64,000 bases of DNA from Eledone cirrhosa (taxonomy: Eukaryota): NCBI GenBank assembly GCA_964016885.1, contig OZ024740.1, positions 248,372,001 to 248,436,000 on the forward strand. Reading direction: 5' to 3'. A program made the position numbers and the translations under genes. Below, piece after piece: positions 9,074 to 27,300 of the stretch (positions are counted from its first letter, which is position 1; each line of letters opens with the position of its first letter). The notes under the pieces are model-generated. The model ran no database searches, was not told the DNA's origin, and was given only the letters and a program-made list of their open reading frames with translations.

Positions 9074-10086
9074 CTAGACCTGAAAAATGCGCAAGCTCAA
9101 AAGAGCCACAGAATGTTGTAATAAACCTTCAAAAGTGTGGGACTAGAGTTGTTGCTCAAAAATATTGTATTCATTATCTATCGTACATTCTGTGGCATCC
9201 TTTATAAAAATATCACAATAAATACATCTATGTTTAATGTAATAACAGCTATAAATAATTACGTAATATTATTATCATATACTCATAGTAACAAAATAAT
9301 TGTCTTGAAAATTAATATGATGCTTATATGAACGATCAAATCTATAATGATAATTTTATAAATATACTAATATTAAAATAATTTAGTTATATATTGTTAC
9401 ATTTTCATCGAACTATAACATTAACAATCGTATTATGTCATCAAATTTTTATCACTGCAAACTTTCATATTGGAATTACCTTAAGCCACTTATCATTACT
9501 TCGCTTTCGTACTTTTACAGATGTAGATATTCGGCTGTATCTTATATCTAATAGCATGATCTCATGGTAATTTGCATGCAGTGTAAAATAGGTTTATTAC
9601 TAACTTTAATATGAAATGTATTATACAGGGCTGCAGAGTCGGCCAAAAATTGACTGGCTCCAACTCCGGATCCGATACTCCATTATTTCCTAAATTTCAG
9701 CTCCGCAGCCCTGTTATTATAATAATTTATTTATTTTATAATTGTAAATCATATTTTCATATGTTACACTCTAAGAATGAACTAAGTGAAATAGTGTAAA
9801 AAGAAAGGCATGCTTGATTTAAGCTAATGTTCAATGTCTCATATTAGATGTTTAGTAATGATTAATACGAAATGCACTTAAACCGAATTGTATATTATAA
9901 ATTCATTTACATAATTATCGTGTCGTCTTGAGTTCGTTATGAGTCTCTTTTTTATAAGAGGATGCCACGGAATGTACGATAGATAATGATTACAATATTT
10001 TTGAGCAACAACTCTAGTCCCACACTTTTGAAGGTTTATTATAACATTCTGTGGCTCTTTTGAGCTTACGCATTTTTCAGGTCTAG
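9074..10086. repeat. Helitron 3'-terminal inverted repeat (arms 9074-9210 and ~9950-10086)
   Basis: ctagacctgaaaaatgcgc...tttataaaaa and its reverse complement. Confidence 0.95.
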
Positions 10087-10093
10087 TATATAT

Positions 10094-10746
10094 AATTAAA
10101 AAACGGAGTTAAAATCTCGCGTTAATCCCTTGTAATTTAATGAGCTCAAGGTATAGATATCGGGCTCTTCATAATACAGTATATAGAGAAGAAAACACAA
10201 CGAGGTATGTTTTCAATTACAGGGGGTAGACTACCACTAGAGTGAAAAACAAAGTCTACGAAAGGAATGGAAAATACATATTAATTGAAAGAATAAATCA
10301 AAATGCACAAACCAACTTTTCATAACTATCAATACCTGGAGAAAATAAGAGAATGTTTCGCCATAAAAAGTGTAGATACTATACCGCTTAGGGCTTCTCA
10401 ACAGGTGTAAAGACAGTATGGTCCACACTTCTAAAAATACTTCAGACAACTAAAATATCGCACATAGTAAAAGGAGACGAAAACACGCACGCTACACAGT
10501 TCATAGTGGTTTGAATGGATTAAAAGACCGCTAGAAATAGCAGCCCATAACCATTCAACTTAAGAAGTTCAACTTACATAAAGAAATGAATTATTAAATT
10601 AAAAAACGGAGTTAAAAACTTAGAAGCACTAAGCGGTATAGTATCTACACTCAATATGTATTTTCCATTCCTTTCGTAGACTTTGTTTTCCACTCTAGTG
10701 GTACTCTACCCCTTGTTATTGAAAACGTACCTGTTTGTGTTTTCTC
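10094..10746. mobile_element. Non-coding fold-back element (arms ~10183-10390 / 10629-10746)
   Basis: Imperfect inverted arms (e.g. aaagtctacgaaaggaatggaaaatacatatt and its reverse complement). The 21-bp direct repeat aattaaaaaacggagttaaaa occurs at 10094 and 10597. Flanked by TA. Confidence 0.6.
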
Positions 10747-24134: not shown

Positions 24135-24329
24135 TATATATATATATATATATATATATATATATATATATATATATATATATATATATATATATATATA
24201 TATATATATCATTTTTTCCGTATATATATATATATATATATACGGAAAAAATGAAACGAAATTTCATTTCTCACTCTTAGTACGGCTGTTACTTAAATAT
24301 AAGTATGTATACGTACATACATATATGTA

Positions 24330-27300
24330 CTAGACATGAAAAATGCGCAAGCTCAAAAGTGCCACAGAATGTTATAATAAACCTTCAAAAGTGTGGGACT
24401 AGAGTTGTTGCTAAAAAATATTGTAATCATTATATATCGTACATTCTGTGGCATCCTTTATAAAAATAGCTTAAACCAACGAAGCCTTTATTTTTACGCT
24501 ATTTCACTTAGTTAATTCTTAGAGTGTAACATATAAAAATATGATTTACAACTATAAAATAAATTAATTAATATAATAACAGAGCTGCGGAGCTGAAATT
24601 TAGGAAATAATGGAGTATCGGATCCTGAGTTGGAGCCAGTCAATTTTTGGCCGACTCCGCAGCCCTGTATAATACATTTCATATTAAAGTTATTAATAAA
24701 CCTATTTTACACTGCATGCAAATTACCATGAGATCATGCTATTAGATATAAGATACAGCCGAATATCTACATCTGTAAAAGTACGAAAGCGAAGTAATGA
24801 TAAGTGGCTTAAGGTAATTCCAATATGAAAGTTTGTAGTGATAAAAATTTGATAATGCAATACGATTGTTAATATTATAGTTCTATGAAAATGTAACAAT
24901 AGATAACTAAATTATTTTACTATTAGTATATTTAAGAAATTATCATTATAGATTTGATCGTTCATATAAGCATCATATTAATTTTCAAGACAATTATTTT
25001 GTTACTATGAGTATATGATAATAATATTACGTAATTATTTTTAGCTGTTATTACATTAAACATAGATGTATTTATTTTTATATGTTACACTCTAAGAATT
25101 AACTAAGTGAAATAGCGTAAAAATAAAGGCTTCGTTGGTTTAAGCTATTTTTATAAAGGATGCCACAGAATGTACGATATATAATGATTACAATATTTTT
25201 TAGCAATAACTCTAGTCCCACACTTTTGAAGGTTTATTATAACATTCTGTGGCACTTTTGAGCTTGCGCATTTTTCATGTCTAGTTTAATATTTTTTTAA
25301 GGCAACGCTTGTAATAACTCTAGTTAAACAGGATATATATTAATAATAAATTATCGTTGTAATGTAATTAGATTATGTAATTGTTATTATAAATTATCTT
25401 ATAAATATTAGTGTAAGATGTATAAAAATATTTTCAGACTTTTAATATAAACAACTACAAAAAACAATCAATATTAAATCAATATATTATACATAATAGA
25501 AAACATAAAATAAACAATACAAAAACAAAATATTTACATACAATTGCAATTATCAGTGTATATACATTTTCTTTATATTCCCTGAGCAAATTAATAAGAT
25601 TTGTTTTTATTGTACATAATTTGATGACTTGTTGGAGTGTATTAAAAGATAGCAACAATTTGTGATTAAATTGTTATCTTAAGCAACTCACTTTTTAATA
25701 GTTGTTGGCTGAGCGAAATTGTAAAAGCCTATGAGCAAATATAAAAAAAAATACACAAACAACATTTCCTTGTGTTATTACAACATTAGATAAAATAATT
25801 GAGCAATGTCGTTATATTTTGCTCTTATTGCACATTAATAGTGTTTCTATTTTTCGGCACAAATCCATTACGGCAGTCCATTACTGGTACTTTATTTTAT
25901 CGAATTAGTAAGTATGAAAGTCGAAGTTAACCTCGGCAGGATTTGAACTTAGAATGCAAAGGACCATAACAATACTGCAAAGCATGGTGTCTGACGCTCT
26001 ACCAATACTTGTGTTGAGCTGGTCATTAATTTATGGTGGTCGTGCGTGGAGTAGAGCAATCGCTAGTTGAAATATTATGAACAAAACATTTTTATTTGCC
26101 GAAGAACATATTTTCAATACTGTTTGTGAATGTGACGAAGGAAATACATTCTGATATGGAACAGTGTACAAAGTGTGTCTGTGAATAACATAATGTTACC
26201 TCATGTTGTTGTCAAGACATAATGGATTTCGTATATCCAGTTAGAAGATGAAACCTAGCCATCTCGGATTAGTTATATTTCATGCCATGTGTTTGAGGAT
26301 AGCAAAATATGCGTGTTTCTTGTCTGGAAACTTTCTGCTAAACTGATTGGTTTCGTTTTTGGCACTATACAATACTTATCCAACAGATAACTGTATTGGA
26401 TCCTTGATTGGTTAATATTTAGGTGAGGGTGCTTGATGCAGAGTTAGTGCAAAATGGATCAATGAGTGTAATAATAATAATGATAATAATAATGAAAATA
26501 TTGTGTACAATGCTGAGGTGCACTACAACTCATCAAAAGTGCATATATAATACATAGGGTAATATAAAAACGTCAGGAAAAAAGAACAGTGCATGAGTCA
26601 TGATATACACATATGTGCATGTGTATGGAAGGGGGACATCAGGTGTAGTTTTGGTGTATTTCGGAATGTATGATGGTTTTAAAGGATGCAGTGTGTCATC
26701 AGCTAACAACTGATGCAGGAAGTTTGTTCCATCCTTCAGCAACTCTGAGCATGAAGAAATATTTCCTAAAGTCATGGGAGCTGTGTTGTTTTCTGACTTT
26801 GTAGGCATGTCCACGTGTTAGACACATGGAGATCAAAAAGGTGTTCGGGGTTGTTGTTGGTCGGATGGTTAATAACTTTGTGGGTGTTTACCAAGTCCAT
26901 TGCCAGAGGGAAGCAAAATATTCAGGGTATGGTAGGTGTCTGATGGAGGGTATGCGCTTGGTTGCATGTCTCTGAACAGTTTCCAGGAGGTCAATGTTCT
27001 GAGCAAGATAGGGGTTCCTGCAACACCAAGACCCAATTCACAAGTGCAGCGTTGCTCATTCACATCGGCAGTGGGGACACCAAAATCAGTGACAGGTCTC
27101 GATTCACTCGCGAGATACATCACAGCTACACTATATATTTAAACATATATACAGTGATACCTCGCTACTTGGCGGTTCAACTATCCCGGATTCACGATTT
27201 CGCGCATTTTTAGAATATATATATGAACACCTAAAATTTTTCATTAAATCCATTAAAATATTAATAATAAACACAGTTCTAATCATACGCTATATATATA

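What the first reader, a model, noticed from the sequence alone, without database searches (positions are those of the whole stretch)
9074..25284. Helitron ends in a ~1 kb stem-loop whose arms co-vary within each copy
Seen: both copies end in long inverted arms (9074-9210 / ~9950-10086, ~135 bp; 24330-24538 / ~25076-25284, ~210 bp), each arm ending in the CTAG|T terminus. At four sites both arms of copy 1 share one allele and both arms of copy 2 share another: gacCtga/gacAtga, aagAgcc/aagTgcc, gctCaaa/gctAaaa, atCtatcg/atAtatcg. Arm length also differs between copies while the spacer keeps its orientation. Established: Helitron 3' hairpins and Helentron subTIRs are normally short (roughly 10-20 bp). 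Inference: one arm is re-templated from the other during replication (strand switching or hairpin-transfer-like copying by the HUH Rep) or by frequent gene conversion.
Basis: partly seen in the sequence, partly recalled or inferred. Interest (0 to 1): 0.75.

Follow-up and report, generated by a model that had tools for sequence, protein, structure and literature searches.

The report
Helitron end duplicated as inverted arms
A rolling-circle transposon carries its right end twice, back to back across about 1 kb, and in one of two copies one arm was recopied from the other; this is known for cut-and-paste transposons, and two copies cannot show whether the transposon's own enzyme does it.

Summary
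Copy 1 (66-10086) is a decayed Helitron2-type (HLE2) element. It has RepHel with DUF6570 and a UCH remnant, a 5' stem-loop, and a 13-bp subTIR pair (91-103 / 10040-10052). Its CTAG end is duplicated as an inverted arm 1 kb inside. Copy 2 is only the last ~1.2 kb. Of 129 arm columns, 4 group by copy, 0 by arm position and 6 are singletons; simulated chance is at most 2.5e-6. The unit is not a MITE: it has no TSD, both copies share its inner flank, and the arms carry the element's own subTIR.

The inference needs trimming. Copy 1's arms differ from each other (5/129) as much as the two copies do (19/535). Only copy 2's arms are homogenised (1/211), and they are 73 bp longer. One arm-to-arm copying event in copy 2's lineage explains everything, as in Galileo TIR extension. 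The likeliest cause is an occasional template switch or gene conversion, possibly at a Rep-nicked end (0.6). Re-templating at every jump stays open (0.2). No further copies were reachable. I found no report of such arms in Helitron-like elements.

The parts
66..10086 (+). Copy 1: full-length, decayed HLE2 (Helitron2-type) element, TC...CTAG, inserted in an (AT)n tract
   Evidence: ends and flanks; protein. The 5' boundary is uncertain by 1-2 nt inside (AT)n
68..121 (+). 5' stem-loop enclosing the left subTIR
   Evidence: -10.4 kcal/mol, z -2.6, 5 of 200 shuffles as stable (modest support)
91..103 (+). left subTIR, 13 bp
   Evidence: 0 of 3000 shuffles give a 13-bp inverted match between the two terminal 120-mers
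1770..7847 (+). broken RepHel ORF: DUF6570, Helitron_like_N/Rep, PIF1 helicase, C-terminal UCH remnant; at least 5 frame changes and 3-4 in-frame stops
8880..9073 (+). inner flank shared by both copies; contains a further minus-strand CTAG|T end-like motif at 9036-9060
   Evidence: 6 of 189 substitutions
9074..9212 (+). copy 1 inner arm: inverted duplicate of the element's CTAG end, with subTIR copy (9108-9120, 1 mismatch) and internal 12-bp IR
9217..9751 (+). spacer unique in both copies (includes an 88-bp TIR relic at 9626-9713)
   Evidence: (19 of 535 differences to copy 2)
9752..9826 (+). segment single-copy in copy 1 but part of both arms in copy 2
   Evidence: 8 of 75 differences, 6 of them in the last 35 nt
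9827..9948 (+). 122 bp present only in copy 1, between that segment and the outer arm
   Evidence: no other match in the window
9949..10086 (+). copy 1 outer arm = true right end; right subTIR 10040-10052, 34 nt from CTAG|T
24243..24329 (+). flank of copy 2: 87 bp matching 45410-45496; the intact site reads A|T at the junction; its continuation was not found beside copy 2
24330..24541 (-). copy 2 outer arm = right end
24542..25072 (-). copy 2 spacer, same orientation as in copy 1
25073..25284 (-). copy 2 inner arm; 25073-25146 is the 73-bp extension, bounded by a repeated 10-mer
25285..25498 (-). copy 2 inner flank homologous to copy 1 8880-9073; homology ends here

Best explanation
This is an HLE2 (Helitron2-type) rolling-circle transposon whose CTAG end was once duplicated in inverted orientation ~1 kb inside the element. 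The likely origin is an inverted self-insertion or foldback that stopped exactly at CTAG|T (inferred). The arms were identical or nearly so when the lineages of copies 1 and 2 split. Copy 1 then landed, died and decayed without further exchange. In copy 2's lineage the inner arm was overwritten once from the outer arm by a homology-primed template switch or gene conversion. That event ran 73 bp beyond the old arm boundary and rejoined at a 4-11-nt microhomology, copying the four lineage-specific substitutions into both arms and lengthening them. The copying is done by host polymerase and repair, as proposed for Galileo TIR extension. It is occasional, not a programmed step. It is plausibly favoured when the Rep nicks and peels this end, because the peeled strand or the nascent strand offers the other arm as template. 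Shown: the anatomy, arm-to-arm copying, and that one event suffices. Inferred: direction (outer to inner), the origin of the duplication, and any Rep trigger.
For: 4 of 129 columns group by copy and 0 by position; chance at most 2.5e-6. Copy 2 arms differ at 1/211 against 19/535 in the spacer (p=0.02), whereas copy 1 arms differ at 5/129 (p=0.80). The extension is an inverted copy of the outer arm's inner flank and is bounded by a repeated 10-mer at 24459/24532 and 25073/25146, also present at copy 1's arm edge, 9203. One concordant site can be polarised: the 5' region (235-247) carries the copy 1 allele of column 84, so copy 2's allele is derived. Copy 1's ORF decay (3-4 in-frame stops) fits the 4.4 stops expected at 1.9% decay per arm. 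Precedents: 38 of 170 Galileo copies have extended TIRs, and within-copy TIR identity is given as 98-100%, attributed to repair from the other TIR (PMC3573991). Inverted self-insertion has been proposed for FoHeli HLE2s (PMC5148889 section 16).
Against: Only two copies, so one comparison. 6 of 9 other inverted-arm pairs I aligned in this window have drifted 3.5-9.1% apart, and copy 1's arms also drifted, so conversion in place is not efficient here; a purely host-driven event in copy 2 needs some luck. The tract ends at the CTAG junction, which is also where a Rep-made end would stop. The direction is not certain: long arms could be ancestral, with copy 1 losing 73 bp between the 10-mers and gaining 122 bp (four events instead of two or three). 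Column 31 gives conflicting polarity clues: copy 1's allele completes a 4-bp hairpin, copy 2's extends the internal IR. The galileo model is itself a proposal, not an experiment.
Confidence: 0.6

Rival explanations
1. Regular, transposition-coupled re-templating. The CTAG end is the origin (IS91-like polarity). The peeled strand snaps back into a 135-210 bp panhandle, and one arm is rebuilt from the other at each or most jumps, so arms are identical at insertion and then age like LTRs.
For: The data fit equally well. Arms were identical at two separate times (0 position-concordant sites). Copy 1's arm divergence matches its ORF decay. Copy 2's flank differs at 1 of 87 bp from its intact relative, compatible with a young insertion. 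Other inverted pairs are not kept identical in place. Both copies fold into one long stem. Layout resembles IS91: left terIS before the ORFs, right oriIS, bottom-strand ssDNA circles insert (PMC13181058). Template switching at a palindromic HUH origin is described for porcine circovirus (review PMC2690592 section 8).
Against: One event explains the same data with fewer assumptions. The age bound on copy 2 is weak (87 bp). The circovirus stem is ~10 bp with no long spacer. For Helraiser (an HLE1), one proposed model has the peeled strand made double-stranded by lagging-strand synthesis without a free ssDNA circle (PMC5876387 Discussion). I found no experiment on HLE2 strand polarity. HLE2s with only short subTIRs transpose without long arms.
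Confidence: 0.2
2. Assembly or polishing artefact: copy 2's two arms were made alike, or the extension was created, by mis-mapped reads.
For: Copy 2 lies 196 bp from a 2.9-kb near-perfect palindrome (2 differences in 1348 bp) and among long (TA)n tracts, which are hard to assemble.
Against: Copy 2's arms keep one difference. They share alleles absent from both arms of copy 1, and the extension has a clean microhomology junction. Other inverted pairs in the same window span 0-9% divergence, so polishing did not flatten them.
Confidence: 0.06
3. The 1-kb unit is an independent long-TIR MITE or foldback element that inserted into the Helitron's terminal CTAG (CTAG being a 4-bp TSD).
For: It has the look of a foldback element, and CTAG flanks both sides.
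Against: No 2-10 bp TSD for either boundary choice. The arms contain the 13-bp subTIR and a second 13-mer that match the autonomous element's 5' end, and no other right subTIR exists in copy 1. No standalone unit occurs in the 64 kb. Even if true, arm-to-arm copying would still be needed.
Confidence: 0.04
4. Selection for a paired stem (compensatory substitutions) rather than copying.
For: All four concordant changes preserve pairing, and the stems are very stable.
Against: It needs four double hits within about 2-3% divergence. It does not explain a 73-bp block appearing in both arms. A 13-bp TIR relic in the spacer has one unshared change in each copy.
Confidence: 0.03

Closest known systems
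HLE2-reverse (FoHeli3/4/5) and proto-Helentron (PMC11417382 section 24; PMC5148889; PMC4067079)
   Same: DUF6570-bearing RepHel without an endonuclease domain; stem-loop at the 5' end at or before the left TIR; right TIR 20-40 bp from the 3' end (34 nt here). Like proto-Helentron, it ends in CTAG and sits at an A|T site.
   Different: A 135-213 bp inverted duplicate of the right end 1 kb inside. The 5' end reads TC, not TT. HELIANO reports no proto-Helentron-like sequence among its 404 genomes and places it only in Phytophthora; this window looks animal (closest named homologs are insects, a sponge and a ctenophore at 34-40%). No tree was built, so the subgroup is not assigned.
Galileo 'two recombinant TIR' copies in Drosophila mojavensis (PMC3573991)
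   Same: Arms highly similar within a copy; arm length varies by recruiting internal sequence adjacent to one arm into the other.
   Different: Galileo is a P-superfamily cut-and-paste element whose TIRs are its two ends and are 600+ bp. Here both arms copy one end of a rolling-circle element.
Composite FoHelis with duplicated termini (PMC5148889 section 16)
   Same: Short (<200 bp) duplicated termini in HLE2s, attributed to self-insertion, including a model of insertion in opposite orientation.
   Different: There the observed duplicates are of the 5' terminus, and no arm homogenisation is described in the parts I read.
Circovirus melting-pot origin (review PMC2690592) and IS91 oriIS/terIS (PMC13181058)
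   Same: HUH Rep systems; template switching between palindrome arms (circovirus); ter upstream and ori downstream of the transposase (IS91).
   Different: The stems are about 10 bp and sit at the nick itself. These are mechanistic analogies only.

Membership tests
HLE2 (Helitron2/Helentron group) | RepHel with DUF6570 (HLE2 marker in PMC11417382) | tested here: met
   PF20209 E=2.4e-7, above cutoff; Helitron_like_N and PIF1 also above cutoff
HLE2 (Helitron2/Helentron group) | short asymmetric subTIRs, 11-18 nt | tested here: met
   13 bp at 91-103 / 10040-10052; 0 of 3000 shuffles
HLE2 (Helitron2/Helentron group) | stem-loop at one end next to a subTIR | tested here: met
   5' fold z -2.6, 5 of 200 shuffles; modest support, and it is at the 5' end (HLE2-reverse layout)
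HLE2 (Helitron2/Helentron group) | usual insertion between T and T | tested here: inconclusive
   Copy 2's 3' junction corresponds to A|T in the intact relative at 45496/45497, as for proto-Helentron, but its other flank is missing; copy 1 is in (AT)n
HLE2 (Helitron2/Helentron group) | placement in the HLE2 clade of a RepHel tree | not tested
   No reference HLE1/HLE2 set was at hand. Most full-length hits carry PF20209 and several carry UCH
Helentron sensu stricto | apurinic endonuclease domain after the helicase | tested here: not met
   No endonuclease hit in 8 ORF pieces of the element; a UCH remnant (E=0.001, below cutoff) lies there instead
HLE1 (canonical Helitron) | 5' TC, 3' CTRR, A|T site | tested here: met
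   the TC is ambiguous inside (AT)n
HLE1 (canonical Helitron) | 16-20 nt hairpin about 11 nt before CTRR | tested here: not met
   Only a 4-bp stem 17 nt upstream in copy 1, broken in copy 2; z -1.5 and -1.4
HLE1 (canonical Helitron) | HLE1-type transposase (no DUF6570) | tested here: not met
   DUF6570 present
MITE / foldback TIR element (the 1-kb unit) | terminal inverted repeats | tested here: met
MITE / foldback TIR element (the 1-kb unit) | target-site duplication | tested here: not met
   0 of 36 comparisons match (2-10 bp, two boundaries, two copies); CTAG itself as a TSD is not excluded by this test
MITE / foldback TIR element (the 1-kb unit) | many standalone copies | not testable with these tools
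   None in the window; the source genome is not searchable

The most novel reading that the evidence does not exclude
An HLE2 lineage has a second, inverted copy of its origin end. The peeled strand forms a panhandle and the arms are re-equalised at each jump by Rep-coupled strand switching. This would reveal the polarity and a new step of HLE2 transposition, and would give rolling-circle elements an LTR-like clock for dating insertions. Copy 1 (old ORF, 3.9% arm divergence) and copy 2 (0.5%) fit this.
Probability: 0.2. Interest if true: 0.75.

Novelty: new variant of a known kind. Interest (0 to 1): 0.4.

Why it matters
I found no experiment on how HLE2 elements transpose or which end is the origin. 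A natural family with a marked, duplicated end is a ready test: the pattern of arm alleles across copies can separate occasional host conversion from transposition-coupled copying, using only the source genome. If copying is coupled to jumps, arm divergence dates insertions. If not, it extends Galileo-type arm dynamics to rolling-circle elements, a modest result. A practical point: the 1-kb unit would be mis-annotated as a MITE. The element also seems to combine an HLE2 protein with TC...CTAG ends and an A|T site in what looks like an animal genome, a layout the papers read tie to Phytophthora proto-Helentrons.

Tried and rejected
More copies: a 30-nt arm pattern found 0 matches in genome contigs. 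The helicase query matched 57 stretches there, none a relative. That collection is prokaryotic, so this says nothing about the family. Viral and metagenome contigs were closed and stayed unchecked; no eukaryotic genome collection exists here. So the tree of arms, flip/flop isomers and standalone units could not be examined beyond 64 kb.

Copy 2's 5' end: no subTIR within 2 mismatches, no match to copy 1's first 335 bp, and the continuation of its flanking repeat occurs only at 45497 and 45773.

Spacer orientation is the same in both copies, but one comparison cannot test flip/flop. A canonical 3' hairpin was sought and not found. Parallel mutation was rejected.

The whole-window repeat finder was swamped by (TA)n, so BLAST was used (hits under 10% GC dropped). 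The output was cut in its middle part (the low-complexity hits of the flank element), so that sub-search is not fully seen. Pfam and PDB gave no family for the ORFs of the neighbouring inverted-arm elements. PMC13085455 and PMC11167929 (passages only) gave nothing on long arms. I did not read supplements; HELIANO's Figures S17-S19 may bear on the HLE2-reverse comparison.
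Full report
Observation. The window is AT-rich, microsatellite-dense DNA packed with transposons. All four arms start A|CTAG read from outside. Over the 129 columns common to all four arms, 4 sites group by copy (the four named), 0 by arm position, 0 crosswise, and 6 are singletons. Simulating four independent arms at the divergence seen in the spacer gave 4 or more concordant sites in 0, 0 and 1 of 400,000 runs for uniform, gamma 1 and gamma 0.3 site rates. 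Each unit folds into one long stem (z -40 for copy 2 against 20 shuffles; no shuffles were run for copy 1). The spacer keeps its orientation.

What the element is. Copy 1 runs from a TC at 66 to CTAG at 10086, with (AT)n on both sides. Its ORF pieces hit DUF6570, Helitron_like_N and PIF1 above cutoff and UCH weakly. The 120 best longer homologs are RepHel-type proteins at 34-42% identity; most full-length ones carry DUF6570 and several carry UCH. HELIANO names DUF6570 as an HLE2 marker and finds UCH almost only in HLE2 (PMC11417382, passages). The ends agree. A 13-bp subTIR at 91-103 pairs with 10040-10052, 34 nt from the end (0 of 3000 shuffles). A stem-loop covers 68-121 (z -2.6, 5 of 200 shuffles), while the 3' end has no significant hairpin (16 and 19 of 200). 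This is the layout called HLE2-reverse or proto-Helentron (PMC11417382 section 24; PMC5148889 passages; PMC4067079 passages). I built no tree. The ORF shows at least 5 frame changes and 3-4 in-frame stops against four named homologs, so copy 1 is dead. Copy 2 shares only the last ~1.2 kb and one 107-bp piece at 83-84%; its 5' end was not found.

What the arms are. Each arm is the element's own right end, subTIR included. The long stem-loop is therefore a duplicated terminus, not an enlarged terminator or subTIR. It is not an independent MITE on local evidence: no TSD in 36 comparisons, about 200 bp of inner flank shared by both copies (6 of 189 differences), and no standalone unit in the window. 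The inner arm stops exactly at CTAG followed by T, as a real junction would. That fits an inverted self-insertion of the kind modelled for FoHeli elements (PMC5148889 section 16) or a foldback at a free end. This origin is inference.

How much copying is needed. The copies differ at 19 of 535 spacer sites (3.55%). Copy 1's arms differ at 5 of 129 (3.9%; 4 of 128 without the column at an indel edge), indistinguishable from that (p=0.80). Copy 2's arms differ at 1 of 211 (p=0.02 against the spacer, p=0.03 against copy 1). So the arms were alike at the split, copy 1 has merely decayed since, and only copy 2's lineage shows later homogenisation. Copy 1's decay is consistent: 1.9% per arm predicts 4.4 stops in 5.4 kb, and 3-4 are seen. 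Copy 2's inner arm also carries 73 bp that copy 1 has only on the outer side. This block is bounded by a repeated 10-mer, and copy 2 lacks 8 nt at the junction and the 122 bp at 9827-9948. One overrunning arm-to-arm copy explains both the four sites and the length change. One site can be polarised from a 13-mer in the 5' region and points to copy 2 as derived; a second gives conflicting clues. The reverse history (long arms ancestral, copy 1 shortened) needs more events but is not excluded, and it still requires copying in copy 2's lineage.

Mechanism. The best-supported reading is an occasional homology-primed template switch or gene conversion by host enzymes. The same outcome is reported for Galileo, where 38 of 170 copies have TIRs extended by adjacent internal sequence and repair from the other TIR is proposed (PMC3573991, section 7 and passages). 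Against a purely host, in-place process: 6 of the 9 other inverted pairs I chose have drifted 3.5-9.1% apart; the other three are at 0, 0.15 and 1.2%. Those three are probably retroelement arms that were identical at birth. This leaves room for a transposition-linked trigger. The layout resembles IS91, where the origin is the right end and the bottom strand moves (PMC13181058, passages). If HLE2s behave so, the duplicated end is the origin and the peeled strand offers the outer arm as template up to the nick. Strand switching at an HUH origin is described for circoviruses over a ~10-bp stem (review PMC2690592 section 8; the primary papers were not read). For Helraiser, an HLE1, one proposed model avoids a free single-stranded circle (PMC5876387, abstract and first part of the Discussion), which argues against a long-lived panhandle. 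Two copies cannot separate 'once' from 'every jump'. I give 0.6 to occasional copying with or without a Rep nick, 0.2 to regular re-templating, and 0.13 in total to artefact, MITE and selection.

Novelty. Four literature searches (listings and abstract starts only, open-access library, no Repbase) showed no report of long inverted end arms or their homogenisation in Helitron-like elements. The process is known for TIR transposons, and duplicated termini are known for HLE2s. The combination is a new variant of a known kind, resting on one event. It is cheap to test with the source genome, which I could not search (searches found nothing in prokaryotic genomes; viral and metagenome contigs were closed). 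Interest 0.4; 0.75 if re-templating proves to be coupled to transposition.

Noticed in passing
window 21270-24134: 2.9-kb near-perfect palindrome (2 differences in 1348 bp per arm, 167-bp centre), 196 bp from copy 2's end. The centre translates to a peptide that looks, from recall, like the C-terminus of a Penelope GIY-YIG endonuclease (no Pfam hit). Inverted pLTRs are typical of Penelope elements (PMC3846280 passages).
   Followed up: partly
window 40982-45398, 45952-48378, 48490-52480: Three related retroelement copies with inverted arms (1.2%, 0% and 4.1% apart). ORF 41808-43163 resembles RT/HTH_animal clusters at 0.95 in the Atlas; the Penelope label is my recall of motifs.
   Followed up: partly
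window 342-615 and 8630-8920: AT-rich direct repeat inside copy 1, near both ends: 76 bp are identical (527-602 = 8831-8906) while the rest is about 90% alike, which may be another conversion tract.
   Followed up: partly
window 9036-9060 (minus) and 25300-25325: A further end-like motif (short GCAAC-loop hairpin, then CTAG|T) just outside the inner arm, and a similar CTAG motif inside each arm (9142, 10010): possibly relics of stacked termini. The fold is not significant.
   Followed up: partly
window 24243-24329 vs 45410-45496: An 87-bp direct repeat 21 kb apart ends exactly at copy 2's terminus, but its continuation is missing beside copy 2: later deletion or a non-standard insertion. An 11-bp foldback around (TA)11 lies at 24211-24253.
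   Followed up: partly
window 9792-9826: 6 of 35 differences between the copies cluster next to the 122-bp insert (p=0.003 against the spacer); unexplained, perhaps a recombination patch from another subfamily.
   Followed up: partly
window 9626-9713: 88-bp relic with 13-bp TIRs inside the spacer; each copy has one unshared change in these TIRs.
   Followed up: partly
window 27725-27794 vs 25402-25490: About 70 bp of copy 2's AT-rich inner flank recurs 2.3 kb away in another repeat context.
   Followed up: no
window 8108-8292, 11118-11180, 25842-26009, 58231-58358: Copies of one short interspersed repeat, 79-93% alike; one is inserted in copy 1.
   Followed up: no
window 11186-17995 (minus), 31338-34352 (plus): Non-LTR retrotransposon remains; the second has endonuclease and RT Pfam hits. 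Multi-kb (TA)n-like arrays lie at about 28160-31000 and 34400-37400.
   Followed up: no
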